Notes under the pieces: model-generated
Database searches by the model: none
Seen by the model: only the letters and a program-made list of their open reading frames with translations
What the model was told of the DNA's origin: nothing
Position numbers and translations under genes: made by a program
Assembly: GCA_964016885.1 (NCBI GenBank)
Contig: CAXHJY010000301.1
Span: 152,487 to 216,486 of the forward strand
DNA from: Eledone cirrhosa
Taxonomy: Eukaryota
Length of the DNA: 64,000 bases
Direction: 5' to 3'
Shown: positions 7,393-60,368 of the stretch, one piece after another
Position numbering within the stretch: the stretch's first letter is position 1
How the letters are laid out: every line of letters starts with the position of its first letter

Positions 7393-8461
7393 ATGTATAT
7401 ATATATCTGTCCCCTTAATCTATTTTATCTCTCATTCCTCCCTCTGATGAATGTACTGTACCGATTGTGTTGTTATTTCTGTTTACCTTTTACATGTATA
7501 TATATATTAGTTTTGCGAGGTTTTTTATATGAAATCGTGTGTCGAAATAAATATTGTTATGTAAAGTAAACCCCGTATAAACTGTAAAACTAGAAACATA
7601 GTCTATAGGATAAGATGTACAGAAGGTACTTGCAGAAACATGACAATAACATACATAGGCGAGACAGCTCGTAGAATAGGTGAAAGGATAGACCAACAGG
7701 GGGGGAGGGGGGACTAAAAGGACGAAAAAACGGTTCAGTACTATACGAACATGCCAGACAACAACACGGCAGTAACATAGACAACATAGAAAAATATCTA
7801 AACATAGAAATGACCCAGCAGATAGGCAAATCAGAGAGGCCAGTGAAATAGAACTTAGAAGGCCAAGGCTAAACTGAAAAAAATGAATGGAATAACAACA
7901 ACACCCAAACAAACAACACTGACCTAAGAGAAGTATAAATAAATAAATAAATACATACACAAGCACAGTAACAACAAGCACATATAAACACACACTAGCA
8001 AACTAAGATAGAATACAATAACCAATACACAGTCACCCAAACACGAACACACGTCAAACAAAACACTATACACGCACGCAAACGCATGCGCAGAAAAGAC
8101 AAAAAAAACCAAAACAAATAAATAAATAAATAAATAAACAGACTAAATAAAGATGGCGTAAGCATACAATACAACGGGAGGAAACATAATAGCACCACTG
8201 ATGATGTTGCAGATGTGCAACGAAATAACTTTGTTAGACTATATTTATGTGTTTGTGTCTATATTGTATCTGTATTTTTGACCGTTGGCCAGTCAATGGT
8301 AACATTGAGGACCGAATAAATTAAATTAAATTAACCAATATAAAAGACACAGAAGCGAAAACCAACCAAACTGAGTGTGTTCTGTTATTAATTCTGGCAA
8401 TATGACCCTCCCCAAGTATAACAATATATATATATGCATATATATATATATGTATATATAT

Positions 8462-11042: not shown

Positions 11043-11065
11043 GTCTTCAATTTTATTATTATTAC

Positions 11066-11105
<40 letters not shown>

Positions 11106-11109
11106 TATA

Positions 11110-11435
11110 TCATCATCATCATCATTTTACGTCCGCTTTTCCCTGCTTGTAAGGGTGGGACGGGAAATGATTCTGGCTTGATTTCTACAGCTGGATGCCC
11201 TTCCTAACACCAACCTCATTTACAGTGAGTGGTGGGTGCTTTTTTCCCGTAGCACCTCCACGACCACTTTGCAGTGGAATGATATGGACTCCAGTCGCTA
11301 TCATCTCATTTCTACAGCTGAGTAAACTGGAGCAATGTGAAATAAAGTGTCTTGCTGAAGGAAACAACACATCACCTGGTCTGAGAATTGAACTCACAAC
11401 TTTTCGATTGCAAGGCCAATGCTCTAAGCCATGTG

Positions 11436-11438
<3 letters not shown>
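11110..11438 (-). mobile_element. tRNA-headed SINE, C-type tail
   Basis: Same family as 7041-7392, small deletion in head. Confidence 0.87.
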
Positions 11439-14400: not shown

Positions 14401-14559
14401 AAAGTGCCCATTTTGATGGCTCCTCTGCAGGACAAAACTGCATTCTTTATATTTGTCTCAGAGACAGCTGATCCATCATCCACTGGCCCTCTCTGTGGCT
14501 CTAAGCCAGCAGAGTCATAACGACCAGGCTGCTCCTTGACAGTGTCATTAGGGGCTCTA
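11497..14559 (-). mobile_element. RTE-clade LINE family D (endonuclease + RT, no PHD), near full length, one frame break near 12130
   Basis: MGTLNVRT, LAIQEHR, GDFNAH, SDH; FIDFRKAFDSV, GVLQGDTLAPYLF, FADD; second ORF DFLYLG...RRLRLAGH; stop codon runs into (TAGA)/(TA)n. Confidence 0.92.
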
Positions 14560-14887
14560 ATATATATATATATCTTGATCGCTCATGAAATCCACCCAGA
14601 TTATGCTGACCGGATAACCATGTTGCTTGTTTATTTTCCTATCTTCGGTTTGCTTTTATCCTTCTATGTTGTTTACTGGTCTCACTCGCTTTGCGCGATT
14701 TACTTGTCACAATAGCTTTTTTTAGTTATTGCTCGCACCAACCTGAGGTATATGATTTTTAATGCGATGAAATATCAATGATGGTTGGCAAATCACTGAC
14801 GAGGGACTAATTTTATCATATGTAACCCATGTGCAACCACGCAGTATTCTTCTTTCTTCTCGTTTTATTTATATATATATATATATA

Positions 14888-17800
14888 TCATCATCATCAT
14901 CATCATATCATTTAACGTCCATCTTCCACGCTTGCATGGGTTTGGACGGGAGTTTTCCCACTTGGGGCAAGATTGGTTGTCTTGCTCGTATAGGACTGTC
15001 TGGCGGGTTTTCTATGGCTGGATGCCCTTCCTAACACCAACCACGTTTACAGTGTGGACTGGGAGGTTTTTACCGTGTTACCTACGTGGCCACATTACAG
15101 CGTGGACTGTGTGTTTTTTTCTCGTGACACCTACACGATCTCATTTATTTCGGACCAACATAACTTTACATCGAGAGGGGTGGTGTGGATGGGAGTGGGG
15201 GTGGTGGGGCGGGGGTGTATTTTTGTTAGAGGTGCCTACTGACTGTAGGTTTCGCTTTGTACTTAGGCAAGGCGGGTCTTCTGTATTACTGTGTAGCGCC
15301 AAAGATCTCGGTCCAGTGACATTGTCTTGGAGAGGTGTAAGTGTGTGAGGTCGGAATTTATCAAGTCGTCCCAGGTTTTTCTGGGTCTGCCTACTCCGTG
15401 GCTATCGTCTATTTTTATCGCCCTGCACTTTTTTATACAGCTGTCGTCTTACATGCGCATCACGTGACCATACCAACGTAGTCTTCTTTCGAGTAAACAA
15501 CATCTGATTCCTCTTATTCCTAATTTCTCCCTTAGTTCATTTATGCTTTGCCGTTCCTGTATATTACTATTACACATCCAACGGAGCATGCACGCTTTAT
15601 TCCTCTCCAGTCTGCGTATATCCTCTGCACACAATGCCCAAGTCTCACTGCCATGTAACATTGCTGTTCGTATGCAGGCATCATACAGCCTGCCTTTCAT
15701 TTGTAGAGAGAACCCTTTAGCGGCCAATAGTGGTATAAGCTCTCTGAACTTTTTCCATCCCGTTCTGACTCTAGCTATTGTACTTTCAGAGCACTCTCCA
15801 CCACTGCTGATTTTGTCACCCAGGTAACGGAAGGTGTCCACTATTTCTATAGAACCATCTGTGCAATGGAATGAGCTAGTATTCTGTGGGCACTTGCTCC
15901 TACTTATTGCACCAGAGCACCGGCCACATATATAATCTATATTCTTAGTTAGCTTACCTGTGATCCCACTACATCTTTTATGCACCCATACTTTGCATTT
16001 CGGACATAAAATGGAGTTGCTGCCTACTCCTTTCCTACACACAGCATGGCCATCCCAGATGCGACCAGTGCCCTATTTTCCTTCCTACAAACTAGAACTT
16101 TAGTCTTAGACAGGTTAATTTTAAGGCCTTTTTATTCTAGGCCATGCTTCCATGTTTGGAATTTCTTCTCTAGTTCAGCCATTGAATCAGCTATGAGCGT
16201 TAGATCATCTGCGTATAGAAGTTCCCATGGGCAGCCGGTCTTGAACTCCTCTGTTATAGCCTGAAGAGCAGTAATAAATAGTAGGGGGCTAAGGACGGAG
16301 CCCTGATGAACACCAACTTTTACGCTAAATTCTTCACTATATTCGTTGTTAATCCTAACCTTGCTGACTGTTTCTTTATAAATGGCTTGTATAGCTCTCA
16401 CAAGCCATGCATCAACACCTAGTTTTCTAAGGGCCCACCAGACAATCGAGCGGGGTACTCTGTCAAAGGCTTTCTCCAAGTCAACAAAAGCTAAGTATAG
16501 GGGTTTACTTTTAGCTAGGTACTTCTCCTGTAGTTGTCATACAATGAAAAGAGCGTCTGTTTTACTTTTACCTGACACAAACCCGAACTGCATTTCGTCT
16601 AGATCAATTCTCTCTCTGATTAGTTGCGCTATTACTTTTTCTGTGACCTTCATGACCTGGTCAATTAATTTAATGCCTCTATAGTTACCCCTATCTAGGG
16701 CATCTCCTTTACCCTTGTAGCAGTCAATGATGCTGCTGCTGCGCCAGTCCTTCGGAATGACCCCATTCTGTATGACTTGGTTTACTATCCGGGTGACCAT
16801 AGTGTGTCCCACCGTTCCAGATGCTTTCAGCAACTATTTCCGAAGGCCCAGCCGCCTTGCCCGTCTTCATGTCTTTGATCACCTTACTTATTATACTACC
16901 TTCAACTTACACTGCTGGTCCCTCTATTGGATCGATGTGGGGGAGACTGTCTTTCTCCCAATTATTCTCCTCATTTAGTAGCCTTTCGTAGTGACACTTC
17001 CAAGCTACCTTCTTATCAGCGTCAGTGATGGCAAGTACACCATCATCATTAAGGACACACTTCTCCCTGACAATATCACGGTTTTCCTTGACACATTGCC
17101 TAGCAATCCTGAACACCTCACGCTTTTGGTCCTCGCGTTGTAGAACATGCTTGAACTTTCTTTCCTCTGCTTCCCTTCTTGCGGAGTACACTTGTCTCCT
17201 AGCTTCCCTCCTGGCCACTTGATACTCTTCTCTACACCCCCCATCTCGCCATGCTCTCCAAGCCTGCTTTTTGGCCTTGATTGGCCCCTCCACCTTACTG
17301 TTCCACCACCACGTTACTCTCCTCCTGCCTATAGGCCTGCTCCAGCCACAGGTTTCATCTGTCGCCTTCAGCAGGTTTGCTTTCAGGAATTCCCACTGTT
17401 CCTCTATATTGTACGACTCTAATTGCTCTTCCTTACTATCAAAAGCATCAAGTAATATGCTTTTAAATTTATTACTGGCTGTAGGGTCCTTTAGCTTCCA
17501 TATTTTTCTCCTGAGGATAGTCCTCTTCTGTTGTTGAGTACGTCTCGTCCTGACTATGAGGTCGCTAATTATGAGTCTATGTTGAGAGGTGCATTCTTCA
17601 TGGGGGAGGGATTTAGTGTTTACAACAGACACTCTATCACGTCTTCTGGTAAGGATATAATCTACCTGGCTGGTGTGTTCCACTGATCTGTAGGTGATCA
17701 AGTGATTGTCTCGTTTTTTGAAGTTAGTGTTACAGATAGTTAGGTTATTTGCGTCACAGAATTCCAGGATTCTGGAGCCTTCCTCATTTCTAGTACCAAA

Positions 17801-18825: not shown

Positions 18826-20665
18826 ATTGTTAACCAGGTAATACTAGAAGGTGTCATACCAAACCAAAGATTGGTGCAGTAGCATCATTGTCAACTGCTA
18901 CAAAGGTAAAGGCGATGCACTAGATAGAGGAAACTATAGAGGTATAAAGCTGATGGACCAGGTCCTGAAAGTAACAGAAAGAGTTATAGCACAGTTGATT
19001 AGGGACCGGTTGAAACTAGATGAGATGCAATTTGGGTTTGTACCAGGAAGAGGCACCACTGATGCCCTCTTCCTTGTGAGGCAGTTACAGGAAAAGTACC
19101 TAGCTAAAAGTAAGCCACTCTACCTGGCATTTGTCGACCTTGAGAAAGCCTTTGACAGAGTTCCACGTGCTGTAATCTGGTGGGCTCTTAGAAAACTAGG
19201 AGTAGATGAATGGCTTGTGAAAGCTGTACAAGCCATGTATAGGGGAGCAGTCAGCAAAGTTAGGATTAGCAATGAGTATAGCGAGGAATTTAGCGTACAG
19301 GTTGGGGTCCACCAGGGCTCTGTTCTTAGCCCTCTCCTGTTCATCATAGTCCTGCAGGCAATAACGGCGGAGTTTAAGACTGGATGCCCATGGGAACTCC
19401 TGTATGCAGATGACCTCGCACTTATAGCTGAATCTATGGTAGAACTAGAGAAGAAATTCCAAACTTGGAAGCAGGGACTAGAAAGAAAGGGTCTCAAAGT
19501 CAACATGACAAAGACTAAGGTCCTTGTAAGTAGACGAGAAAACAGAACCCAGATCCCCTCAGGGAAATGGCCTTGCTCAGTATGTAGGAAAGGTGTAGGT
19601 AGGAACTCCATTCTCTGCCCCAAAGCAAACAATTTGTATACAAGAAATGTAGCGGGATCTCAGGAAGCTTAATTAAGAATGTAGGCTTCACATATAGCAG
19701 CTGTGCTGGGACAGCAAGCAGCAAACAGCCACAGGAAACAAGTACCACCAATCTCTGGGAGGGCTCTGTAGAAACAGTAGACAGCTTCTGCTACCTAGGT
19801 GACCGAATTAGCAGCGGAGGTGGGTGTTCAGAAAGTACAATAACTAGAGTAAGAACGGGATGGAAGAAGTTCAGGGAACTACTGCCACTGCTAGCTGCAA
19901 AAGGCTTCTCCCTCAAAATGAAAGGCAGACTGTATGATGCGTGTATCCGAACAGTAATGTTACATGGTAGTGAGACCTGGGCGCTGAAGGTGGAAGACTT
20001 ACGTAGATTAGAAAGAAACGAAGCCTGCATGCTGTAATAGTAATAGTAATATACGCGAACGGCAAAGCATTAATGAATTGAGAGAGAGGCTGAGCATCAG
20101 AGGAATCAAATGCTGTGTGCAGGAGAGGCGGTTGCATTGGTATGGACATGTGATGCGTATGAAGGATGACAGCTGTATAAAAAGGTGCAGAGCACTAGAA
20201 GTCAATGGAATCCGCGGATGGGGAAACCCAAGAAGACCTGGGATAAGGTGATAGGGGCCGACCTTACCCAGTTGCACCTCTCAAAGGCGATGACACACGA
20301 CTGTGACCTCTGGTGTCACACAGTAATACAGAGTACCCGACCTCCCATGGGTACAAGCTGAAGCCTATAGACAATATGCCCCACACCCTCCCACTACAAA
20401 GTGGTCATGGAGTTGCCACAGCAAAAAAGCACCCAGCGCTCACTGTACAGTGGACGTGTAGGCGCCACGGAAAAAAAGCACCCAGCACTCACTGTAAATG
20501 AGGTTGGTGTTAGGAAGGGCATCCAGCTGTAGAAATCAAGCCAAAATCAGTTCCTGTATGAGCAAGGCTTGGTCAGCCAACCAGACACTGCCCACAACAG
20601 GACAACCCGTCTAACCCATGCTAGCATGGAAGAACAGACGTAAAACGATGATGATGATGCTGATG
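18826..20665 (+). mobile_element. RTE family B, 5'-truncated (RT, decayed PHD, 3' UTR, (GAT)n tail)
   Basis: ORF 18851-19672 with FVDLEKAFD, GVHQGSVLSP, YADD; distinct 3' UTR ending CCCGTCTAACCCATGCTAGCATGG...ACGATGATG. Confidence 0.9.
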
Positions 20666-20715
<50 letters not shown>

Positions 20716-21849: not shown

Positions 21850-24269
21850 ATGTCTACTAAGAACATACCAATACCACCTAAAGATACATACGAAAAATTA
21901 TTGATTAATAGTGTCAACTCTTTTATCAATAGAGTGAGATGGAGGACATTCCATTACAATAGAAACCGTTCAGACAAAAACAGAGATATAAATAACTTCG
22001 ACACTTACGGCTTTAAAACATTTAAAAGCCCTCCTCACAACACCTTATTAAACTCTTTTGAAAATGATCTAATTAAACTAGTTAAGAACATAAAATACAA
22101 AAAACATTGTAATAGAAATAACACCTTCTTAAACTACCACTATTAAAGGATTTAAAAAAAAAAAAAAAATCCTAGTACATGCAGATAAAACTAATAATAT
22201 ATATAACTTAGATTACGATACTTATAGAAAATTTATATATAAGGAACTGAATAGGAGCTACAAGAAAACTACTACTAAAAACCTAGAAGATATAAATATA
22301 GAAGGCCGTAGTATAGTGTGTAAATTAGGACTTCAGAGACATACACAGCCATACACCCCTAATCTCCCAAGATTCTCTCTGAAGGGCCATAAAGAAGACT
22401 TCATTAGTAACCCTTCAATAAGGCTAATTTGCCCTTCCAAATCTGACATTGGTATTATCAGCAAGAAAATATTAGATAGAATCATCCCACAATTTAAGCA
22501 CAAAATATATCTTAACCAATGGGGAAATACAGGTGAAGTTATTGAATGATTCAAGGGTATTAAAGAGAGTAAAAATAAAAAATTTATAGAATTTGATATC
22601 AATTCATACTACACCTCTATTTCCCCTATCCTATTAAATAAGGCTTTAATTATGGCCATGAACAATAGTGACCTGACTAGATCCCAAATTGATGTCATAC
22701 TTGCGGTCTGAAAAACCATAATTACGTTTGAAGACCAATTATGGACCCGCAAAGATACGCATAACAACTTTGACATAACTATAGGATCTAGTACTCGGTG
22801 CAGGTCACTGATTTGGTGGGCCTATATCTACTAAATGAAATTCATAAGAACCTATCCTACCTCACTGGTGGTTTATACCGCGATGGTGCACTACTCCTTA
22901 TAGACTATAAAAAATTTAATATAGAAAAAACTAGGAAACAATTACACAAAATTTTCAAAAACTTCAACTTAAGTATCACCTTAGATAAAAACACTAAAAA
23001 TGTTAACTTCCTTGATGCTACCTTTTGCCTAGACTCTAAAATATACACACCCTATCATAAACCTAACGAAAAACTAATTTATGTGAACACCAACTCTAAC
23101 CACCCTAAATCCATATTAAACTCTATTACTAAAGGAATATCTAATAGAATCTCTAATCTATCATATAATGAAACCATATTTAACAATAATTCACAATACT
23201 ATAATGAGGCCTTAGCTAAATCAGGACATAGGAATGAGATTGAACTCCTACCTATAAAATCACATAGTTACATTATTTCTCATAATATGGCCATGAGGAA
23301 AAATAGTAAAAACACTAGCCACTATAACTCTAGGACGAAGATTAATACCAAACTTAACTCGCACCAACGTAAACACCACAATAATAATATAAACAGGGAA
23401 ATAAATACCTAAAAAAACTACTAAAAACAAAAATAGGAGAACTAATACATTCTTCAATCCCCCTTTCAATCTAAACGTCTCTACCAACTTGCCTAAGGCT
23501 TTCTTCTCAATCTTAGAAAAAAACTTCCCCTCCGGCCACAAGTACCATAACCTTATCAATAAAAATACTATTAAAATCTTGTACTCCACCACACCTAACA
23601 TAGCATACCATATAGCTAGTAGTAATAAAAGGAAGATTAATAATTATTTCTAACTAATTAAAACACAACAGGAGGTAAACTTAGTACCTGTAAACAATAG
23701 TAGTAATAATAGTAATAATGATTGTAGCACTAATGAAATCAATAACAATACGAATGACAGGCATCATTATTTTTAGTGCTATCCCTAGCAACCAGAATTC
23801 TTCAAAACATAGGAACCGGCAAGCTGACATCCAGAATAAATGTAACTGTAGAACTAATAGAACTTGCCCCTTAGGTAATAATTGCTTAACCAAAGACATC
23901 ATCTACTCATGCACCGTCAATGCAAACAACTCTTCTAAAAGATATATCGGCTCTACTTCGAACAGCTTCAAGACGAGATACAACTCGCACCTCCACTCTT
24001 TAAAAAAACACAATCTAGCCAACTCCACTTCTTTATCTAGATACATACACTCTCTGAAAACTAGGAATAGACCATTTACACTGCAATGGGAAGTAGTAGG
24101 TAGGGCCTCATCGTATAAACCACCAAATAAATTGTGTAATCTCTGTCTTCCAGGGACCCATACTATAATCTTTTCGAAACTAGACCTCCTTAATAGAAAG
24201 TCAGAGACATTTTCCTCATGCCAACACCGATACCGTCACTCGTTCCATAACTTTAAACCTAGCTGTTAG
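21850..24269 (+). pseudogene. PLE2 polyprotein (RT + GIY-YIG, Naiad-like), with stops and frameshifts
   Basis: STKNIPIP, RVRWR, YGFK, IRLICPSKSDIG, GLYRDG, CNCRTNRTCPL, YIGSTSNSFKTRYNSH, CNLC, LNRKSETFSSCQH. Confidence 0.9.
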
Positions 24270-32187: not shown

Positions 32188-32510
32188 GGAGGCACATGGC
32201 TTAGTGGTTAGAGCATTGGCCTTGCAATCAAAAGGTTGTGAGTTCAATTCTCAGAACGGGTGATGTGTTGTTTCCTTGAGCAAGACATTTTATTTCACAT
32301 TGCTCCAGAAATGAGATGAGAGGGACTGTGGTCCATATCATTCCACTGCAAAGTGGTCGTGGAGGTGCCACAGCAAAAAAGCACCCAGCACTCACTGTAA
32401 ATGGGTTGGTGTTAGGAAGGGCATCCAGCTGTAGAAATCAAGCCAGAATCAGTTCCCGTCCCACCCGTGCAAGCAGGGAAAAGTGGACTTAAAATGATGA
32501 TGATGATGAT
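32188..32510 (+). mobile_element. Full-length tRNA-headed SINE, C-type tail, in a (TA)n tract
   Basis: A box TGGCTTAGTGG, B box GAGTTCAATTC, tail CCCGTCCCACCCGTGCAAGCAGGG...ATGATGATG. Confidence 0.88.
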
Positions 32511-34832: not shown

Positions 34833-34869
34833 GTGCATATATATATATACATATATAACAACACCATTG

Positions 34870-35003
34870 TCTGCAGCAGCAGCAGCATCAGTGAAATGAA
34901 CAACAACAACGGCAGCAGCAACAACAACAACTGCCATCACCATCACTGACCCCATCCACCACCATCACCATCATTGACACTATCCACCACCATCACCATC
35001 ACC
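34870..35003. repeat. (CAG)/(CAA)/(CAC,CAT) trinucleotide low-complexity tract
   Basis: Direct reading. Confidence 0.85.
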
Positions 35004-35377
35004 AGCGATCAGGCCTTAAGAAGAAGAAAACAACTATAATAATAGTAATAATTATTCTGTTTTTGGCACGGGGCAGCGATTGTCCCAGTGCATTGCTGGT
35101 GCCTTGTTTTGGGGCCCGGAGAGTGGAGGGCCGTTGCTCTATGCTGTAAAGCAAACAATTATTATTATTATAAAAATACTGAACTGTAAAAGTCAACAGT
35201 TGACATGATCTTGTATCAGTACTGACGGTAATATATGTATGTGTGTGTGTGTTTGTATGCATGAGTGTTGGTGTGTGAGTGGCATGTGTGTTTATATGCA
35301 TGAGTGTTGGTGTGTGAGTGAGTGTCCATAAGTGGTGTTTTTATTTTTTTAATTCTTATGACCATGCTGTAAAATGG

Positions 35378-38300
35378 AGGGGTAGAGAGGGCCCATGAGT
35401 CCAGTAAGACATCCTCTCTAGTGCTGGTGGCATGAATAAAAGCACCCAGTCCATGCTGTAAAGTGGCACTGGCGTTAGGAAGGGCATCTAACCAGTGTAT
35501 CAATGCCAAAACAATTATGAGCACAGCAACAAATATATAGGAATAACAAAAATATGAAGATGTCGCATCTCAGAGTTGCAACACTTAATGTTGGCACTCT
35601 CACAGGTAGATCTGGTGAAATAGCGGAGATGCTGGAGAGAAGGCATGTGGATGTGTGCTGCGTGCAAGAGGTGAGATGGAGAAGTGCCTCTGCGAGACTA
35701 GTCGCAAGCAAACATCTTAACTATAAACTTTTTGGGGTAGGTAAGGATGATGGGTTAGGGGGAGTAGTCATTTTCCTGGCTGAGAGATGGATCAATAAGA
35801 CAATAGAGGTAGTTCAAGTTAATAATCGAATAATTAAGCTTAGATTAGTTGTAGGTAGGAGACTACTGACAATCATCTCTGCTTATGCTCCCCAAGCAGG
35901 CCTAGGCAAAGAAAAGAAAGACTGCTTTTACGAGCAACTTTTACAAACAGTCACATGACAGAGGACAGAGACATCGTTATGCTAGCAGGAGACTTCAGTG
36001 GTCATGTTGGACAGCTCCAGGATGGTTACACTGGGGTACATGGTGGGCACGGTTACGGCTCAAGAAATGAAGAAGGAGTGAGACTTCTTGAATTTTGTGA
36101 TGCAAGTACACTGACTATTTGCAACACTAACTTCCAGAAACCTGCCAACCACCTAATAACCTACAAATCTGGCGAGCATATAAGCCATATTGACTTATTA
36201 CTAGTTAGGCAGCGGGACAGGCAGATGGTTTCAAATACCAAGGCACACCCTGGGGAAGAATGTACCCCACAGCATAGATTAATCGTTAGTGATATCTCAG
36301 TAAGCAAGAGATGGAATGAAACATACAAGAAGGTGTGCAGAAGAAAGGTCTGGAAGCTAAAAGACCTTTCACTAAAATACAAATTTAGGAAAGCCCTTCA
36401 AGATGTGTATGACGAAAAAGAAGACGATTTAGAGTCGTATGACATAGATAATAACTGGAATTTCTTACGTGACAACTTACTGCAGGCTACTGATGAAACT
36501 TGTGGCTTGAGCAGAGCTCCAACCAGACAGAGAGTGACCTGGTGGTGGAGCAGCCCGGTAGATAGGGCCATTAGAGACAAAAGACTAGTATGGAAGGCTT
36601 GGAAAAAGGGTGGGAGTAGAGAAGGATATACAGCCGCTAAGAGAGAAGCAAGACATCGGGTGCACGCAGGGAGGCTGAGAGTAGGAGGTTTGCCAATGTT
36701 CTGCGACGGGAAGATCAGAGGCGTGCGGTGTTCCACATTGCAAGGCAGTGTGTCAATGCAAATCAGGATGTTTTTGGAGATAAATGTGTCCAGAATGATG
36801 CCAGTGTACTTAGTGTCACGAATGATCAGAAAAAGAAGGCCTGGAAATGTCATTATGAGAGACTGATGAATGTGGAGAACGAATGGGAGAGAGAGAAATT
36901 ACCCTCAGTAGATCCGACAGAGGGACCAGCTATTGAGATTGACGAATATAGGGTCCAAGAGGCGATTAGGGAAATGGAAAATGGTAAGGTTGCTGGACCG
37001 TCGGGGATAGTTGCTGAGATGCTGAAGGCATCAGGGGACGTAGGCACTAAACTGGTTGCATGCATCATCAATCAGGCTATATATGGTGGTGTCATACCCA
37101 AAGACTAGTGCAGCAGTATTCTCATAAATTGCTACAAAGGTAAAGGGGATGCTCTGGAGAGGAGTAATTATAGGGGTATAAAACTGATGGATCAGGTTAT
37201 GAAAGTGGCAGAAAGGATATTAGCACAACTAATTAGAGAAAGGGTCAAGCTAGATGAGATGCAGTTTGGTTTTGTGCCTGGGAAAAGTACAACAGATGCC
37301 CTCTTCCTGGCGAGACAATTACAAGAGAGATTCTTAGAGAAGAATAAGCCACTATACTTAGCCTTTGTTGACCTAGAGAAGGCTTTTGATAGGGTACCCC
37401 AATCTGTCATCTGGTGGTCCCTAAGGAAACTAGGTGTTGAGGAATGGCTTGTGAGGACAGTGCAAACTTTGTACAGAGGTGCTGTCAGTGAAGTGAGGGT
37501 AGGAATGGAGTTTAGTGAGGAATTCCAGATACAAGTAGGAGTACATCAAGGTTCGGTCCTCATCCCGCTCTTGTTCATTAAAGTCCTCCAAGCCATAACA
37601 GAGGAGTTTAAGACTGGCTGTCCATGGGAACTTCTCTATGCTGACGATCTGGTTCTTATATCAGAATCAGTAGAGGAACTAGAGAATAAATTCTGGCTAT
37701 GGAAACAGCAGTTGGAAGCAAGAGGACTGAGATTGAACCTAACTAAGACAAAAGTGTTGATGAGTAGAAAAGAGGACAAAACACTGATTCCGTCAGGGAA
37801 ATGGCCATGTTCGATATGCAGAAAAGGAACTGGCATAAATTCTATAAAATGCACACAATGCAGTTCCTGGGTACACACGAGATGTAGCGGGATAGCAGGC
37901 AAACTAACAGGTAGGGAGAAATACATATGCAGTAGATGCACAGGGAAATTAGACAGTAGAAGTCGCATTGATAGACACATTTTTCAAATGCAGGTGGCTT
38001 CTATAGAAGTGGTGGATAGCTTCTGGTACCTAGGAGATCAGATTACAATGGGAGGGGGTGTTCCGAAGCCATAGTATCTAGAATAAGGATGGGTTGGAAG
38101 AAGTTTAGGGACATGCTTCCTCTGCTGATGAAGAAGAGTTTCTCCCTGCATACGAAAGGCCAGTTATATGATGCCTGTGTGAGGAGCACGATGCTGCATG
38201 GTAGTGAGACTTGGGCAGCAACTGCAGAGGATATGCGACGGCTGGAGAGAAATGAGGCAAGCATGCTCCGTTGGATGTGCAATGTCAATGTGCGTGAACG

Positions 38301-38635
38301 ACCCAGCATGGATGTGTTGAGAGAGAAACTGTCTGAGAGGGATAGAATGTAGTGTGCGAGAGAGGAGACTGAGGTGGTATGGACATGTGATGCGCATGGA
38401 AGATGACTGATGGGTGAAGAAGTGCCAGAAAATGCCAGTTAAAAGAAGACGCAGTAGAGGTAGACCACGAAAAACCTGGGCGGAGGTGGTGAGAACAGAC
38501 CCCAGATCGCTGAAGCTCACAGTGGAGATGACGAAGGACCGTGACAAGTGGAGAGATGCTGTGGTGAATAAGACCCATCCCACCCTTGCAAGCAGGGAAA
38601 ACGGACGTAAAATGATGATGATGATTATAATGATG
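35378..38635 (+). mobile_element. RTE family C, apparently full length, disrupted; ORF runs directly into terminal hairpin and (GAT)n
   Basis: LRVATLNVGTL, CCVQEVRW, QHR; RT FVDLEKAFD, YADD; PHD CSIC..CTQC..H..C..CSRC; end AAGACCCATCCCACCCTTGCAAGCAGGG...ATGATG. Confidence 0.92.
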
Positions 38636-38656
38636 ATATATATATATGCATATATA

Positions 38657-39099
38657 TCATCATCATCATCACCGTTTTAAGTCCATTCTTCCACGCTAGC
38701 ATGGGTTAGATGGGTTGTCCTGTTGTGGTCAGTGTCTGGTCGGCTAACCTTGACTTGCTCATATAGGAACTGATTCTGGCTTGATTTCTACAGCTGGATG
38801 CCCTTCCTAAAACCAACCTCATTTACAGTGAGTGCTGGGCGCTTTTTTTTTCCGTGGCGCCTACAAGTCCACTTTACAGTGTGGGCTGGGTGCTTTTTTG
38901 CCGTGGCACCTCCACAACCACTTTGCAGCGGAATGATAGGGACCCCAGTCCTATCATCTTATTTCTACAGCTGAGTAAACTGGAGCAATGTGAAATAAAG
39001 TGTCTTGCTGAAGGAAACAACACATCACCCGGTCCGAGAATTGAACTCACAACCTTTCGATTGCAAGGCCAATGCTCTAACCACTAAGCCATGTGCCTT
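38657..39099 (-). mobile_element. tRNA-headed SINE with complete B-type tail
   Basis: Same head and core as the other SINEs, but the 3' part matches the RTE-B 3' UTR to its end. Confidence 0.88.
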
Positions 39100-40413: not shown

Positions 40414-41262
40414 AGGTGGGTGCTCAGAAAGTACAATAACTAGGGTAAGAACGGGATGGAAGAAGTTTAGGGAACTACTACCACTGCTAGCTGCAAAAGG
40501 CTTCTCCCTCAGAATGAAAGGCAGACTGTATGATGCGTGTATCCGAACAGCGATGTTGCATGGTAGTGAGACCTGGGCGCTGAAGGTGGAAGACTTACGT
40601 AGATTAGAGAGAAACGAAGCCTGCATGCTCCGATGGATGTGTAACAGTAATATACGTGAACGACAAAGCATAAAGGAATTGAGAGAGAGACTGAGCATAA
40701 GAGGAATCAAATGCTGCGTGCAGGAGAGGCGGTTACGCTGGTATGGACATGTGATGCGTATGAAGGATGACAGCTGCATAAAAAGGTGCAGAGCACTAGA
40801 AGTTGATGGAAACCGCGGAGTGGGGAGACCCAAGATGACTTGGGATGAGGTGATAAAAGCCGACCTTACCCAACTACACCTCTCAAAGTCAATGACACAC
40901 GACCTTGACTTCTGGCGTCACGCAGTAATACAGGGTACCCGACCTCCCATGGGTACATGCTGAAGCATATAAACAATATGCCCCCCCCCCCCCCCCCCCC
41001 ACCGCAAGGTGGTCGTGGAGGTGCCACGGCAAAAAAAGCACCCAGCCCACACTGTAAAGTGGACGTGTAGGCGCCACGAAAAAGCACCCAGCACTCACTG
41101 TAAATGAGGTTGGTGTTAGGAAGGGCATCCAGCTGTAGAAATCAAGCCAGATCAGTTCCTGTATGAGCAAGGCATGGTCAGCCGACCAGACACTGCCCAC
41201 AACAGGACAACCCGTCTAACCCATGCTAGCGTGGAAGAACGGACGTAAAACGGTGATGATGA
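40410..41262 (+). mobile_element. RTE family B 3' fragment
   Basis: [19 protein letters not shown]...GTRPPMGTC* plus B-type 3' UTR. Confidence 0.88.
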
Positions 41263-44560: not shown

Positions 44561-44944
44561 CCAAAGCACCAAGTGTGCGTGGGTGGAGTGGCAGTAAATT
44601 AGTTGAATAGGTTTATAGTATGATTGTGATAAGTGGTTGTTGGTGGACATGAAGAGGACAGACTTGAACAGGGAGGCTGTGGAAAGGGAGGCTGGGTTGG
44701 TGTGATATGACATTGGTCAATATGCAGATAGTGTTGAGTTGGCAACAGATATTTTACATAAAATAAATGCAAAAATATTATTGGTAGAGAGCAGAGAGCC
44801 AGAATGAATATTGCAAAGCATTCTATCCAACATTCTAACAACTCTGTCAATTTGTCATCTAGCCAACCAAAGGCTTAAATAACATGCCTGTAACATCCAT
44901 CTAATTTATCTAAATATAACCTAAGCCAAAACCACCCCAATACA

Positions 44945-45192
44945 TCAGTCCACCCTGTAAGATGGTCATGCTGGTGACACAACAAAAAGTACGCAATCCA
45001 CCCTGTAAGGTTGTCATGCTAGTGACATGATAAAAAGCACCCAGTTCACGCTGTTATGTGGTTAGTGTTAGGCAGGACATTCAGCCATAGAAAACACCAT
45101 ATGAGCATGATGTGGTCTCTAATCCTGACTTGTCTCATAATGTGACAATACGTCTAACCTATAGTAGTGGGGAAAAAATAAACGTTAAATGA
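44945..45192 (+). mobile_element. Old RTE/SINE 3' module with about 50-bp subrepeats
   Basis: CAGTCCACCCTGTAAG..GTCATGCT.GTGACA..AAAAAG repeated; decayed terminal hairpin. Confidence 0.6.
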
Positions 45193-45194
45193 TT

Positions 45195-46035
45195 AGTCAT
45201 AAAACACAACTAATCACTTACAACAATCGACTGTTGACATTTGATGTAAATCGGTGGTATTTGGAGTCTGTGGATTTATAGAAAATGTCTGTTTCTATTT
45301 TTCCGTCTGTTTTTGAAATTATGATATCTCACCTGGTTAGTTCCTTGGTATTAAACTCAATTGTGAATTGGATGTTGCTGTTAAGGTTATTTATCACATT
45401 CTTTAGTTCTGTGTGTGTATCAAGGTTTTCCTGTCATAAGATAAAACAATCGTCCAGGTACCTTTTCCAGTTGTTTTTTAGTTGTGTGTGAAATCAGTCT
45501 CCCAATAATAATTGTTTCTACTTTTGGCACAAGGCCAGCAATTACCCAGTGCATTACTGGTACTTTATTTTAGCGACCCCGTAAGGATGAAAGGCAAAGT
45601 AAACCTCGGCGCGATTCGAACTCAGAATGGCAAGGGACGTAACTCATTGCGTCAAAGCATAGCGTCCGACCGTCTACCTATACTAGCTTCTGTCATGGAG
45701 TCACATGACTAAATTGGTGTATATAGGGACTACTTCCATTGTAGGTCCTGATATTTGTCAGTACACAGATCCATTGAACGAAAAGTAATTGTTATGTAGA
45801 ATTAATTTGAGTCCATCAAGGATGAAGTCTTTTGCAATTCATATTATTAGTCTCAATACAATATATCCATCTCATTGGTGTCATTTGCTGATGTAACGAT
45901 TGTATACTAGCATCACTGAAATATGTGTTGTGTAATCAATATGATTATGCAATCATAATGCTAGATATCTACTATGAGGACTGCTTTACCTGATTACACC
46001 TGTTTCTCAACGAGACATCACTGCAACTCTCTCGT
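45195..46035 (-). pseudogene. Decayed Penelope-like RT of a different (YLDD-type) lineage, interrupted by a SINE
   Basis: Minus strand FILDGLKLILHNNYFSFNG..., WKRYLDDCFIL, NIQFTIE, IETDIFYKSTDS. Confidence 0.7.
45504..45692 (-). mobile_element. Second SINE family (B box GAGTTCGAATC, (TTA)n-like tail)
   Basis: Core TTTGCCTTTCATCCTTACGGGGTCGCTAAAATAAAGTACCAG; a related tail remnant lies near 35037-35110. Confidence 0.6.
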
Positions 46036-46305: not shown

Positions 46306-46317
46306 ATATATATATAT

Positions 46318-47010
46318 ACATCATCATTTTTACGTCTTTTTCCATGCTTGCATGGGTTGGACAGGTGCTTTTCAGCACAGCACCTCTTCACACACTGCAT
46401 TCCTTCATCATCTCTGTGAATCAGAGCAATTTGAGATCAGTTCTCACCATCTCAGCCCAGATCTTTCTTGGTCTACCACTACTGCAGCTTCCTTCCACTG
46501 GGATTTCCTGGCACTTATTCACCCAGTAATTATCATCCATGTACATCGCATATTCGTACCACACAGTCTTCTCTTGTACACCACTTTGGATTCCTCTTCT
46601 GTCCACTTTATCCCTCAGTTCATCCAAGATCTACCTTTCTCTCACACTTACATTGCACTTCCAACAAAGCATGGTTGCTTCATTTCTCTCCAGCCTACAC
46701 ATGTCCTCTGCAGCCACAGCTCATATTTCACTATTATGAAGCATCACACCTAACACACAGGCATCATACAGTCATATTTTTGTATGTATGGTGAAACCTT
46801 TTGTTGTCAACAGTGGTAGTAGCTCTCTAAACTTCTATCCTTTCCATGTTCTAGCTATTATGTTCTCAGAGCACCCTCCTCCACTGCTAATTAAGTCGCC
46901 TAGATAACAGAAACTATCAACCACTTCTTTGGATCCTTTCTGGGATTGGAAAAGGTTTTACATCACTGATACTCTTCCCCTCGACTACCCCTGTGTATTT
47001 TCTGCATACA
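46318..47010 (-). pseudogene. Older RTE 3' fragment with a C-like direct end
   Basis: VVDSFCYLGD, GRPRKIWAEMVRTDL, terminal hairpin CCAACCCATGCAAGCATGG. Confidence 0.72.
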
Positions 47011-50679: not shown

Positions 50680-52090
50680 CTCTTTTCACAGTCAACACAG
50701 GCTGGACATTGGTGTAAGAAGGAGTTTGTTGCTGCTGCCCTTAGTTTACCTTCGTACTGTGCTGTGGGCTCATCCGGGATCCTGGATAGCAGAGTGTTTC
50801 TTGAAAACATCCATGTCCACACCATGCAGATCTCTCAAATTCCTTGGCAGCTTGTTGAAGAGTTGAGGGCCTTTGAACCCCAGGCTATTGCAATATCTGC
50901 TCCTTATTCTAGATGTGGAAGACAAGACCTTTGGCACCACACAATGATGTCCTTTTCAGGAGTTGGTCCAGCTCCCAATGCCAAAGTTTGGTGCTAGTCC
51001 CTCCAGGATTTTCCATATGTATATCACTGTGTATCTCTCCTGTCTTCGTTCCAAGGAGTAGAGTTTCATTTCTTTTAGCCTCTCCCAGTAGCTTATCTCC
51101 TTCATCATGGCAATCCTCTTGGTGTAGCTTCGTTGGATTGCTTCAAGCTCCTGTGGTTAGTTTGATACTATGCGTGACCACAGCTGGGAGAATTAGTCCA
51201 GTTGGCTTAGGACAAATGTCCTCCATAGTATTAACATGGTTTCTTGGTCTCTTGTCTGAAAAATCCTCAAGATCCAGCCAGCGAGTCATCTGCACATTGT
51301 TGTCACTTTCTTAATGTGTGAAGAAAAAGATGCATCATCTCGCATGTCTATTCCCAGATCTTGTATCGATTCCAACATGGGAATTTCGTTCCCTCCTTGT
51401 CCGGTGTAACTGTGTTGTACTGTATTTGTGTTTGTACGTTGGTATTGTTGGGCTTGAAATTTTCCAGCATTAAATTGCATGTTGTTGTCCTCAGCCCATT
51501 TCATCATCAACATCATCATCTTCATTTAACGTCCATCTTCCACGCTAGCATGGGTTAGACATTTGTATATGGTATCCAGATCTTTTTGTAAAAGGGCAGC
51601 ATCAGCCGGGTTTTTGATTGCCTGTGCTACCTTTCTGTCATCAGCATAGCTAGTGAGGGATGTTGTTGTATGTACTACAGAGGGCATGTCTGAGAGACCC
51701 ACCAAAAACAGTAGTGGTCTCAGGACTGTGTCCTGGGACACCCCACTTGTTATTGACGTTCCCTTTGAGAGGGCCCCGTTTGCTGCGACTGTCTGGCTTC
51801 TGTCCTTTAAGAAGTCGTGCAGCCACTCGCCTAATTTCTCAGTTAGGCCGAGTCTATGTAGTTTGTGACATATTCCGTGGTCGACCTTGTCAAAGGCCTT
51901 CACAAAGTCAAGATATATCACGTCCATATGTAAGCTGTCTAACAGTTGTTTCAGTACCCAGTTGTAGTGATGTAGCAGCTGAGTAAGGCAGCTTCTTCCT
52001 TGGTGAAAGCCATGCTGCGTGCTAGTCAGGCGGTCATTCTCTCTCGAGGAACGTGATCAGTTTCTTTCTGATGATTCGCTCCATGACCTT
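50680..52090 (-). mobile_element. CR1/L2-group LINE RT remnant
   Basis: QHGF..RSCLTQL, DVIYLDFVKAFDKVDHG, GVSQDTVL.PLLF, YADD.K, LQKDLD, WAEDNNMQFNAGK. Confidence 0.8.
51502..51560 (-). mobile_element. 59-bp RTE terminal hairpin + (GAT)n insertion in the CR1-like remnant
   Basis: Splits IYK/WAED; flanked by ATTT direct repeat (51498-51501, 51561-51564). Confidence 0.75.
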
Positions 52091-56698: not shown

Positions 56699-59600
56699 AT
56701 CATCATCATCATCATCATCATCAGGTTTAGCGTCCGTGTTCCACGCTTGCATGGGTTTGGACGGGGGTTTTCCCACTTGAGGCAAGAGTGGTTGTCTTGC
56801 TCGCATAGGACTGTCTGGCGGGTTTTCTACAGTTGGATGCCCTTCCTAACACCAACCACATTTACAGTGTGGGGCTGGGAGGTTTTTACCGTGTTGCCTA
56901 CACGGCCACATTACAGCGTGAACTGTCTGGCGGGTTTTCTACAGCTGGATGCCCTTCCTAACACCAACCACATTTACAGTGTGGGGCTGGGAGGTTTTTA
57001 CCGTGTTGCCTACACGGCCACATTTACAGCGTGGACTGTGTGTTTTTTTGTCGTGACACCTACACGATCTCATTTGTTTCGGCCTGGATGTTGTGGGACC
57101 AACATAACTGTACATTGAAAGGGGCGGTGTGGATGGGGTGGAGGTGGTGGGACGGGGGGGTGTTTTGATAGAGATGCCTACTGACTGTAGTAGGTTTTTA
57201 CTTTGTATTTAGGTAAGGCGGGTCTTCTCTATTACTGAGTACCGCCAAAGGTCTCGGTCCAGTGACATTGTCTTGGAGAGGTGTAAGCATGTGAGGTCGG
57301 AATTTATCAGCTCGTCCCATGTTTTTCTGGGTCTGCCTACTCCGTGGCTACCGTCTATCTTTATTGCCCTGCACTTTGTTATACAGCTGTCGTCTTTCAT
57401 GCGCATCACGTGACCGTACCAACATAGCCTTCTCTCGAGTAAACAACATCTGATCCCTCTTATTTCTAATTTTTTCCTTAGTTCGTTTATGCTTTGCCGT
57501 TCACGTATATTACTATTGCACATCCAGCGGAGCATGCAAGCTTCGTTCCTCTCTAGTCTGCGTATATCCTCTGCACACAATGCCCAGGTCTCACTGCCAT
57601 GCAGCATTGCTGTTCGTATGCAGGCATCGTATAACCTGCCTTTCATTTTTAGGGAGAACCCTCTAGCGGCTAATAGTGGTATAAGCTCTCTGAACTTTTT
57701 CCATCCAGTTCTGACTCTAGCTACTGTACTTTCAGAGCACCCTCCCCCACTGCTGATTTTGTCACCCAGGTAACGGAAGCTGTCCACTATTTCTATAGAA
57801 CCCTCTGCGCAGTTGAAGGAGCTAGTATTTTGTGGGCACTTGCTGCTACTTATTGCACCAGAGCACCGGCCACATGTAAAATCTATGTTCTTAGTTAGCT
57901 TACCTGTGATCCCACTACATCTTTTATGCACCCATACTTTGCATTTGGGACATAAAATGGAGTTTCTACCTACGCCTTTCCTACACACTGAGCATGGCCA
58001 TTTCCCAGATGGGACTGCCGCCATATTTTCTTTCCTACAAACTAGAACTTTTGTCTTAGCCAGGTTAATTTTAAGGCCTTTTGATTCTAGGCCGTGCTTC
58101 CATGTTTGGAATTTCTTCTCTAGTTCGGTCATTGATTCAGCTATGAGCGTTAGATCATCTGCGTATAGGAGTTCCCATGGGCAGCCGGTCTTGAACTCCT
58201 CTGTTATAGCCTGAAGGGCAATAATAAATAGTAGGGGGCTAAGAACAGAGCCCTGATGGACACCAACTTTTACGCTAAACTCTTCACTATATTCGTTGTT
58301 AATTCTAACCTTACTGACTGTTTCTTTATACATGGCTTGTATAGCTCTCACAAGCCATTCGTCAACACCTAGTTTTCTAAGAGACCACCAGATAATGGAA
58401 CGGGGGACTCTGTCAAAGGCTTTCTCCAAGTCGACGAAAGCTAAGTATAGGGGTTTACTTTTAGCTAGGTACTTCTCCTGTAGTTGTCGTACAATGAAAA
58501 GAGCGTCTGTGGTACTTTTGCCTGACACAAATCCGAACTGCATTTCATCTAGATCAATTCGCTCTCTGATTAGTTGCGCTATTACTTTTTCCGTGACCTT
58601 CATGACCTGGTCGATTAATTTAATGCCTCTATAGTTACTCCTATCTAGGGCATCTCCTTTTCCCTTATAGCAGTTAACGATGATGCTGCTACGCCAGTCC
58701 TTCGGAACAACCCCATTCTGTACGACTTGGTTAACTATCCGGGTGACCATGGTGTGTCCCACCGAACCAGATGCCTTCAGCATCTCAGCAACTATTTCCG
58801 AAGGACCAGCCGCCTTACCCGTCTTCATATCTTTGATTGCCTTGCTTATTGTACTACCCTGGACTAACACTGCTGGTCCCTCTATTGGGTCGATGTGGGG
58901 GAGACTGTCTTTCTCCCATTTGTTCTCCTTATTTAGAAGCCGTTCGTAGTGACACTTCCAAGCTACCTTCTTATCAGCGTCGGTGATGGCAAGTATGCCA
59001 TCATCGTTAAGCACACACTTCTCCCCGACAATATCACGGTTTTCCTTGACACATTGCCTGGCAATCCTGAACACCTCACGTTTTTGGTCCTCACGTTGTA
59101 GAACATGCTTGAACTTTCTTTCCTCTGCTTCCCTTCTTGCGAAGTACACTTGTCTCCTAGCTTCCCTCCTGGCTACCTGATAGTCTTCTCTACTTCCCCC
59201 ATCCCGCCATGCTTTCCAAGCCTGCTTTTTGGCCTTAATTGACTCCTCCACCTTACTGTTCCACCACCATGTTACTCTCCTCCTACCTACAGGCCTGCTC
59301 CAGCCACAGACTTCGTCTGCCGCCGTCAGCAGGTTTGCTCTCAGGAATTCCCACTGTTCCTCTAATTTATACGACTCTAATTGCTCTTCCTTACTGTCGA
59401 AAGCGTCAAGTAATATGCTTTGAAATTTATTTCTGGCTATGGGGTCCTTTAGCTGCCATATTTTTCTCCTGAGGATAGTCCTCTTCCGCTGTCTAGTACG
59501 TCTCGTCCTGACTATGAGGTCGCTAATTATCAGTCTATGTTGGGAGGTGAATTCTTCATGGGGGAGGGATTTAGTGTTAACAACAGACACTCTGTCACGT

Positions 59601-60368
59601 CTTCTGGTAATGATATAATCTACCTGGCTTGTGTGTTCCCCCGATCTATAGGTGATCAAGTGATTGTCTCGTTTTTTGAAGTTAGTGTTACAGATAGTTA
59701 AGTTATTTGCGTCGCAGAATTCCAGGATTCTGGAGCCTTCCTCATTTCTAGTACCGAACCCATAGCCTCCATGGATTCCGTCATAGCCGTCACAATGCTG
59801 TCCAACATGACCATTTAGGTCGCCTGCAATAACTATATAGTCACTGTCGGTTATTTGGGAGGTAGCGAGCATCAGTGTCTCGTAGAATCTGTCTTTTATA
59901 GCACCGGGCAGTCCGGATTGTGGTGCGTACGCAGATATTACTGTCACCGTAGTTTTATTGAGGACAAGTCTTATTTTAATTATTCTGTCGTTCACTCTAT
60001 TTACGTCTATTATCTTATCTGCCCACTTTTCTGCTACCATGATTCCTACCCCACCCAACCCATTGTCATTTCCCACCCAGAAAAGCTTATAGCATCGTTC
60101 TTTACCCACGATGAATCTAGCCGACCCTCCCCTCCACCTGGTCTCTTGAATACAACAAACATCAACCTCCTTACGCTCAAGCATTTCTACAACCTCGTTA
60201 GAGCGACCCTTTAAGGTGCCTACATTCATGGTACCAACTCTGAAGTTTTGGATTGCGTTTGGAGGGTGGGAGCGGTGGGGCGCGGGGGGGGGGGGGTTAT
60301 GTTAGCCATCCTGGGCCGAAACAAGGCGGAGTGCTTGCATTCTCGTCCACGAGGTGAATTTGTCCAAG
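56699..60368 (-). mobile_element. RTE family A, young copy lacking the 5' UTR
   Basis: Intact ORF, complete 3' UTR, microsatellite on both sides. Confidence 0.95.
57209..60229 (-). CDS. RTE LINE protein: AP-type endonuclease + reverse transcriptase + PHD finger (1006 aa)
   Basis: NVGTL, IQETRW, GDLNGH, VDY, SQHR; QFGF, FVDLEKAFD, GVHQGSVLSP, YADD; C4HC3 at 57863-57994; FRYLG; WYGHV. Confidence 0.93.
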   Translation of the reverse strand: MNVGTLKGRSNEVVEMLERKEVDVCCIQETRWRGGSARFIVGKERCYKLFWVGNDNGLGGVGIMVAEKWADKIIDVNRVNDRIIKIRLVLNKTTVTVISAYAPQSGLPGAIKDRFYETLMLATSQITDSDYIVIAGDLNGHVGQHCDGYDGIHGGYGFGTRNEEGSRILEFCDANNLTICNTNFKKRDNHLITYRSGEHTSQVDYIITRRRDRVSVVNTKSLPHEEFTSQHRLIISDLIVRTRRTRQRKRTILRRKIWQLKDPIARNKFQSILLDAFDSKEEQLESYKLEEQWEFLRANLLTAADEVCGWSRPVGRRRVTWWWNSKVEESIKAKKQAWKAWRDGGSREDYQVARREARRQVYFARREAEERKFKHVLQREDQKREVFRIARQCVKENRDIVGEKCVLNDDGILAITDADKKVAWKCHYERLLNKENKWEKDSLPHIDPIEGPAVLVQGSTISKAIKDMKTGKAAGPSEIVAEMLKASGSVGHTMVTRIVNQVVQNGVVPKDWRSSIIVNCYKGKGDALDRSNYRGIKLIDQVMKVTEKVIAQLIRERIDLDEMQFGFVSGKSTTDALFIVRQLQEKYLAKSKPLYLAFVDLEKAFDRVPRSIIWWSLRKLGVDEWLVRAIQAMYKETVSKVRINNEYSEEFSVKVGVHQGSVLSPLLFIIALQAITEEFKTGCPWELLYADDLTLIAESMTELEKKFQTWKHGLESKGLKINLAKTKVLVCRKENMAAVPSGKWPCSVCRKGVGRNSILCPKCKVWVHKRCSGITGKLTKNIDFTCGRCSGAISSSKCPQNTSSFNCAEGSIEIVDSFRYLGDKISSGGGCSESTVARVRTGWKKFRELIPLLAARGFSLKMKGRLYDACIRTAMLHGSETWALCAEDIRRLERNEACMLRWMCNSNIRERQSINELRKKLEIRGIRCCLLERRLCWYGHVMRMKDDSCITKCRAIKIDGSHGVGRPRKTWDELINSDLTCLHLSKTMSLDRDLWRYSVIEKTRLT

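What the first reader, a model, noticed from the sequence alone, without database searches (positions are those of the whole stretch)
35421..35512. One RNA module lies upstream of the ORF in RTE-C but in the 3' UTRs of RTE-A and RTE-B and in the SINE body
Seen: just upstream of the family C ORF is GTGCTGGTGGCATGAATAAAAGCACCCAGTCCATGCTGTAAAGTGG..GGCGTTAGGAAGGGCATC..TCAATGCCAAAAC. The homologous block (AAAAGCACCCAG..CTGTAAATGAGGTTGGTGTTAGGAAGGGCATCC..TCAAGCCAAAATC) is downstream of the stop codon in family B (about 20455-20550), in related form in family A 3' UTRs, and in all five copies of the main SINE family. Family C ends right after its ORF; A and B extend about 300-500 nt past the equivalent point, and I do not see the block in the two A 5' UTRs. 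Known: bipartite non-autonomous RTEs and some SINE bodies consist of RTE 5' UTR + 3' end. Inference: autonomous A/B LINEs captured such a bipartite unit or SINE body as a new 3' UTR, moving a 5' cis-element to the 3' end, possibly a SINE-to-LINE transfer.
Basis: partly seen in the sequence, partly recalled or inferred. Interest (0 to 1): 0.75.

Follow-up and report, generated by a model that had tools for sequence, protein, structure and literature searches.

The report
Retrotransposon start element moved to tail
A short conserved sequence that sits just before the gene in one jumping-gene lineage sits after the gene in its sister lineage, most likely because that lineage captured a shortened copy of an element as a new tail, and its near-unchanged survival there suggests it is a signal that works from either end.

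Summary
The block is in the 5' UTR of family C (24 of 30 copies whole, the rest cut inside it) and of the older sister family D. It is in the 3' UTR of A, B and their old relatives, and absent from A and B 5' UTRs. The 5' position is ancestral: the same core lies before the start codon in an unrelated RTE contig and in published hagfish RTEs, whose SINEs also carry it. The ORF tree gives one gain on the A/B stem. The captured unit keeps the old start codon and a second tail, so it looks like a bipartite 5'UTR+tail piece. SINE-to-LINE transfer is not supported: the window's SINE matches B (94%), not C (67%), and no old SINE carries the A/B unit. A 24-nt core is identical in A and B while silent sites are near saturation, which points to selection at the 3' end. 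RNA structure and function are untested; 'RNA module' is unproven. Earlier scan notes covered the 48-nt repeat and the 5' monomers; none of the 8 shown (of 29) reported this relocation.

The parts
34857..35553 (+). Family C 5' UTR (this copy is 5'-truncated; about 1 kb in the longest copies)
   Evidence: shared by L101-L110
35421..35523 (+). The block in C: predicted hairpin part (about 35440-35474), core (35471-35492), spacer, ancestral ATG (35517)
35517..35540 (+). Short upstream ORF (MSTATNI*) opened by the ATG that is homologous to the start codon of outgroup RTEs; C's long ORF starts at 35554
35554..38612 (+). Family C ORF (endonuclease, RT, PHD finger); broken by stops and frameshifts in this copy
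38571..38637 (+). C tail hairpin inside the ORF end, then GAT repeats
18830..20361 (+). Family B ORF, 3' part, stop at 20359-20361
20394..20564 (+). B 3' UTR: 48-nt partial repeats, block (20455-20550) and retained ATG context (20558-20564)
20606..20667 (+). B terminal tail hairpin and GAT repeats
57209..60229 (-). Family A ORF, intact, 1006 aa (Exo_endo_phos, RVT_1, PHD)
56700..57208 (-). A 3' UTR: decayed old tail, C-rich spacer, two 113-nt block units (56810-57070), terminal tail
14890..15270 (-). 3' UTR of a second A copy with one block unit
32188..32510 (+). Young SINE: tRNA-like head (by eye; ARAGORN calls none), B-type block, C tail. Like copies at 1842-2200, 7050-7393, 11111-11438 (minus)
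38661..39098 (-). Young SINE with the B tail, the likely older form
46313..47008 (-). Family D fragment (old sister of C), ends at its ORF
44940..45195 (+). Old A/B-lineage 3' unit (48-nt repeats, block, tail), 5'-truncated

Best explanation
The block lies just upstream of the start codon in RTE families C and D and downstream of the stop codon in A, B and their old relatives; the 5' position is most likely ancestral, and the A/B ancestor likely gained the 3' copy once by capturing an internally deleted unit (end of 5' UTR, start codon, short spacer, tail) as a new 3' end, where the core is likely kept because the element's protein would need it on the RNA wherever it sits. Shown: positions, tree, retained ATG, second tail, loss from A/B 5' UTRs, conservation. 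Inferred steps: (1) an RTE of this clade gave a bipartite derivative; (2) read-through into such a unit inserted just downstream, or an RT template switch, joined it to an intact ORF; (3) reverse transcription then started at the distal tail and the old tail inside the ORF end decayed; (4) with the core now supplied at the 3' end, A and B replaced their 5' UTRs with unrelated tandem monomers; (5) the young SINE then took B's 3' end as its body and later swapped to the C tail at a 5-nt shared word. The role as a position-independent packaging or recognition signal is inferred from its retention in non-coding SINEs and in 3' UTRs.
For: Outgroups: contig L127 (45% aa identity) has the core at 218-256 and an in-frame ATG about 35 nt after it. 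[quoted passage not shown] 4 of 120 database relatives contain the translated core, all N-terminal of the endonuclease. 0 of 24 outgroup loci that reach the ORF end have it before their terminus. 36 of 120 relatives end in the translated tail (control 8 of 6000 windows), as C does. Tree: genome clade 100, C+D 99, A+B+old relatives 97 (SH-aLRT). D: core in 11 of 14 copies that reach the region, 0 of 19 3' ends. Random 780 kb: 11 of 11 A/B-type ORF ends are followed by the block, 0 of 5 C-type. Old-tail remnant after the A/B ORF: 19 of 19 above their shuffle mean, 16.8 against 12.3. Constraint: 24-nt core identical in A, B and old A/B, 23 of 24 in D, while four-fold sites are 101 of 271 (A-B) and 72 of 219 (A-C).
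Against: No free bipartite donor of the A/B type was found; 52 of 97 units had no informative upstream flank. Only 2 of 79 metagenome loci reached the ORF start and one (L161) shows no core upstream. The tail remnant reaches p<0.05 in only 7 of 19 copies, which share ancestry. The tree is the quick search, without bootstrap, from degraded single copies. No significant fold, no Rfam match, and the hairpin part is not shared with L127 or the metagenome repeats. Recombination between families at the core could mimic selection. No functional test.
Confidence: 0.65

Rival explanations
1. SINE-to-LINE transfer: an old tRNA-headed SINE carrying the bipartite unit was the donor, joined inside its body so that no head remains.
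For: Old SINEs with the block exist here (L210, L217), and a further old short repeat resembles hagfish SINE2-10_EBu (L261, L080, L407, by eye). The old A/B unit is as close to old SINEs (77%) as to D (77%) or C (75%).
Against: The old SINEs have the D-type base in the core and a different spacer without the retained ATG context. 0 of 97 A/B-type units are contiguous with an old SINE head (one head 600 nt away is separated by unrelated DNA). No head or CORE-like match was seen between stop and block. The young SINE derives from B.
Confidence: 0.17
2. Same history, but the core is a DNA promoter or translation element; at the 3' end it drives a downstream tandem copy or is kept by recombination between co-active families, not by a role in retrotransposition.
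For: It sits 24-34 nt before the ATG; head-to-tail B copies occur (L091, L093); a B 3' fragment inserted exactly into a D block (L336) and a C/A chimera (L110) show that families do recombine.
Against: It is kept in non-coding SINEs with tRNA-like heads, in hagfish and here; A and B have their own 5' monomers; flanks of the core stay family-specific.
Confidence: 0.2
3. The block is ancestrally 3' (or a chance SINE fragment upstream of this C copy) and moved to the 5' end in C.
For: 3' and SINE copies greatly outnumber 5' copies: 0 of 43 block elements in random DNA were 5' UTR copies.
Against: C and D carry it family-wide; outgroups have it 5'; the 3' unit keeps a start-codon context.
Confidence: 0.03

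Closest known systems
[quoted passage not shown]
   Same: The same core (21 of 24 nt against RTE-4_EBu, compared by eye) lies in RTE 5' UTRs before the ATG and in SINE bodies ahead of an RTE tail.
   Different: There the flow is LINE 5' UTR to SINE. Here an autonomous lineage carries the unit behind its ORF and lacks it in front.
[quoted passage not shown]
   Same: RTE 5' UTR + 3' end units, tail exchange among SINEs, function of the conserved 5' domains left open; transfer into other LINEs' 5' UTRs (Ingi-3_AC, R4-1_ADi) is noted.
   Different: The block is not that domain (its words were absent from the supplement). The Ceph-type domain appears separately, in tandem, further upstream in D (by eye). 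No move into a LINE 3' UTR is described in the parts read.
5' UTR switching in tobacco RTEs (bioRxiv 10.1101/2022.11.04.512097; passages)
   Same: RTE families replace 5' UTRs and have a variable plus a conserved part in the 3' UTR.
   Different: The passages seen give no 5' origin for the conserved 3' part.
RTE-2_OV of Octopus vulgaris (PMC9115989; passages)
   Same: Single-ORF RTE with a zinc finger, microsatellite starting at the ORF end, as in C and D.
   Different: Sequence not compared; no UTR module in the passages; the core word was absent from 8 supplement files searched (4 not searched).
LINE 3' transduction and RT template switching (general knowledge, recalled)
   Same: Likely route of the capture.
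   Different: Usually single copies; here it became the fixed 3' end of a long-lived lineage.

Membership tests
RTE-clade LINE | Single ORF with apurinic endonuclease and RT, no ORF1 | tested here: met
   A ORF 1006 aa: Exo_endo_phos, RVT_1, PHD; no shared ORF seen in 5' UTR sequences (by eye)
RTE-clade LINE | 3' tail hairpin followed by microsatellite | tested here: met
RTE-clade LINE | RT-tree placement among named RTE references | not tested
   tree held only unnamed relatives; likeness to RTE-4_EBu by eye
Bipartite non-autonomous RTE unit | Part of an RTE 5' UTR joined to an RTE 3' end with the ORF deleted | tested here: met
   A/B 3' unit = 5' UTR end, ATG context, about 50 nt, tail
Bipartite non-autonomous RTE unit | Exists as an independently mobile short family | tested here: inconclusive
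   52 of 97 A/B-type units lack informative flanks; no headless family shown
tRNA-headed SINE with RTE-derived body | tRNA-derived head, body, LINE tail, uniform copies | tested here: inconclusive
   uniform head+body+tail in 17 copies; head tRNA-like by eye only, ARAGORN found none
Ceph-domain 3' half (Kojima 2018) | Sequence match to the conserved RTE 5' domain of Ceph-SINEs | tested here: not met
   block words absent from that supplement; the domain resembles a different stretch in D
Self-cleaving ribozyme (HDV-like, twister) of RTE 5' ends | Match to a curated ribozyme model | tested here: not met
   no Rfam ribozyme hit at E<=10 in 35020-35560 or L127 100-480
Structured RNA element | Stable fold with covariation | tested here: inconclusive
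   z +0.4 to -1.1; one hairpin recurs in 6 of 7 family majority folds with one double change in B, by eye; no formal covariation test

The most novel reading that the evidence does not exclude
A 24-nt core shared from hagfish to this genome is a second, position-independent recognition signal for RTE retrotransposition. An autonomous lineage moved it from the 5' to the 3' UTR, which freed its 5' end for promoter replacement and handed the young SINE a ready body plus tail. This would explain why unrelated SINEs keep RTE 5' UTR pieces as conserved bodies.
Probability: 0.4. Interest if true: 0.72.

Novelty: new variant of a known kind. Interest (0 to 1): 0.5.

Why it matters
Why SINEs keep RTE 5' UTR fragments as conserved bodies is left open in the papers read (PMC5786205). 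Two sister lineages in one genome, one with the element in front of the ORF and one behind it, are a natural swap experiment, and family A is young (99-100% between copies, intact ORF), so the question can be tested in a retrotransposition assay. It also shows the bipartite unit flowing back into an autonomous LINE and then out again into a SINE. The parts are known; the 5'-to-3' relocation with constraint was not found in print, on weak searches.

Tried and rejected
Chance SINE fragment upstream of one C copy: rejected. Young SINE as donor: rejected. Ribozyme identity: no Rfam match. Ceph- or Meta-domain identity: core words absent from the supplements searched (one MetaSINE file not searched). 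Viral-contig scan for the core: 0 hits. A genome search with B 40500-40900 returned nothing because common words are skipped; another B stretch worked. No RNA holder listed for the C stretch, so expression and RNA ends were not examined. The careful tree did not finish; the quick tree is reported. Literature searches for capture of a 3' UTR found nothing relevant but are weak, since 5' and 3' cannot be searched with the prime sign; PMC13295347, PMC6036668, PMC13282606, PMC4758252 and PMC8501958 (passages) described no such case; the BovB paper PMC3549140 was not held; Repbase and Dfam were not available.

Full report
Setting. The window lies in a 3.0-Gb animal genome of 1796 contigs; its repeats look octopod-like (inference; earlier AI notes say the same). 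It is crowded with three related single-ORF LINEs: A (intact 1006-aa ORF with endonuclease, RT and PHD finger), B (75% nt to A) and C (65-69% to both).

Observation. The block at 35421-35512 is real and far above chance against B, A and all five SINE copies (scores 59-76, best shuffle 29-34). Homology extends to an ATG context at 35517-35523 that B also has after its 3' block. In C it is family-wide: 24 of 30 copies whole, 4 core only, 2 cut just inside it, and 10 of 10 long copies, within a 5' UTR of about 1 kb. Of 9 C 3' ends printed, 7 stop at the ORF, one is truncated and one is an A chimera. B has it after the stop (26 of 30 complete, 4 with internal losses), A in 13 of 13. It is absent from the shared 5' sequence of 30 A copies (hits in 6 loci belong to neighbours) and 20 B copies. 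In 780 kb taken at arbitrary round coordinates, 11 of 11 A/B-type ORF ends were followed by the block and 0 of 5 C-type; one end was cut by the locus edge.

Polarity. An older family D (fragment at 46313-47008) ends at its ORF (0 of 19 ends with the core) and has the block in front of it (11 of the 14 copies that reach the region; 11 of 25 did not reach it). Many older relatives of A and B have the extended 3' UTR. A quick ML tree of the C-terminal 440 aa groups C+D (99) and A+B+old relatives (97), both together (100) against 22 unnamed outgroups (SH-aLRT only, degraded copies, three rows under half filled). Among outgroups, contig L127 has the core about 35 nt before an ATG that reads in frame into the endonuclease; the only other locus reaching the ORF start, L161, shows no core. 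0 of 24 outgroup loci reaching the ORF end have the core before their terminus; 18 show a terminus within 150 nt, 4 have under 40 nt of flank, and L186 has a core beyond its terminus. 4 of 120 related proteins contain the translated core, all upstream of the endonuclease, and 36 of 120 end in the translated tail hairpin. [quoted passage not shown] So 5' is ancestral and the 3' copy was gained once on the A/B stem (inference from these results).

What was captured. The A/B 3' unit reads: partial 48-nt repeats, block, ATG context, about 50 nt, tail hairpin, GAT repeats. That is the layout of a bipartite RTE derivative (PMC5786205, PMC7245038). At the ORF end, where C, D and outgroups have their tail, A/B copies keep a weak likeness to it: 19 of 19 above shuffle mean, 7 of 19 at p<0.05, not independent, one of 20 inputs not anchored. 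The old A/B unit is about equally far from C (75%), D (77%) and old SINEs (77%), which fits a donor that split near the A/B-C/D divergence, perhaps the lineage's own former 5' UTR.

SINE direction. The young SINE's block is 94% identical to B and 67% to C. B's 3' UTR descends with its ORF from older relatives, so B to SINE is the simple reading. SINE copies with the B tail exist (38661-39098, L344, L363), and the commoner C-tailed form joins at a 5-nt word shared by both tails (by eye). Old SINEs carry the D-type block with another spacer. Of 97 distinct A/B-type units, 41 were linked to an ORF end, 3 to the young SINE head, 1 lay 600 nt from an unrelated old head, and 52 were uninformative (loci were not a random sample). 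SINE-to-LINE is therefore unsupported, though a vanished donor cannot be excluded.

Function. Four-fold sites are 37% identical between A and B and 33% between A and C, near saturation, yet a 24-nt core is identical in A, B and old A/B majority sequences and differs by one base in D; it matches hagfish RTE-4_EBu at 21 of 24 (by eye). The spacer between stop and block does not align well between A and B. Retention in 3' UTRs and in non-coding SINEs argues against a purely translational or promoter role and for a signal used in retrotransposition (inference). Recombination at the core is a live alternative (L110, L336). Folding gives no significant stability (z +0.4 to -1.1) and Rfam no match, so an RNA-structure role is not shown.

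Known and new. The core as RTE 5' UTR and SINE body is in print (PMC7245038, passages and supplement passages). The LINE 5' UTR to SINE body route is in print (PMC5786205, parts 1-4 of 5). RTE 5' UTR replacement is in print (bioRxiv 2022.11.04.512097, passages). I found no description of an autonomous RTE lineage carrying the unit as its 3' UTR, but these searches are weak, four supplement files of PMC9115989 and one of PMC4824008 were not searched, and Repbase and Dfam were out of reach. Earlier scan notes e1-9585604 and e1-8673048 agree on the 48-nt repeat and the 5' monomers; they are AI notes and are not counted as support.

Verdict. Observation confirmed; relocation well supported (about 0.85); bipartite donor more likely than a SINE; function as a position-independent signal about even. 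New variant of a known kind, interest 0.5.

Noticed in passing
L336, L340, L349, L350, L355, about 1000-1250 of the oriented locus: [quoted passage not shown]
   Followed up: partly
window 35517-35556: C lost the N-terminal extension that D appears to keep; the old ATG now opens a 7-codon upstream ORF out of frame with the main ATG.
   Followed up: partly
L261 about 5340, L080, L345, L407, L317: An old short repeat closely resembles hagfish SINE2-10_EBu and the RTE-4_EBu 5' UTR over about 90 nt (by eye); ancient retention or horizontal transfer.
   Followed up: no
PMC7245038 supplement 2, RTE-2_EBu 5' end: The stretch just before the core looks like a twister ribozyme (recalled consensus, not tested); no such word in loci held here.
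   Followed up: no
L110: C 5' part joined to an A 3' part in register-like order, a possible template-switch chimera.
   Followed up: no
L336: A B 3' fragment sits inside the homologous hairpin of a D block, suggesting homology-guided 5' joining.
   Followed up: no
L275 9250-9850 minus, L281 6220-6820: The 48-nt partial unit of the 3' UTR expands into arrays of 12 or more copies, as an earlier scan note reports on larger scale.
   Followed up: no
L304, L307, L314, L318: The oldest A/B-lineage 3' UTRs hold one more decayed tail copy between the ORF end and the block, hinting at serial 3' captures.
   Followed up: partly
L058, L045, L059: Family A 5' UTR is built of about 490-bp tandem monomers; B has unrelated tandem pieces.
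   Followed up: partly
L135, L147, L154, L186, L192 (metagenome): A short abundant repeat in these contigs begins about 30 nt before the same core.
   Followed up: no
window 12129-14582 minus; 9448-11203, 22792-24269; 50740-52056 minus: Other retroelements: a distant endonuclease+RT ORF, GIY-YIG-like Penelope-type fragments and a CR1-like fragment (named by recall).
   Followed up: no
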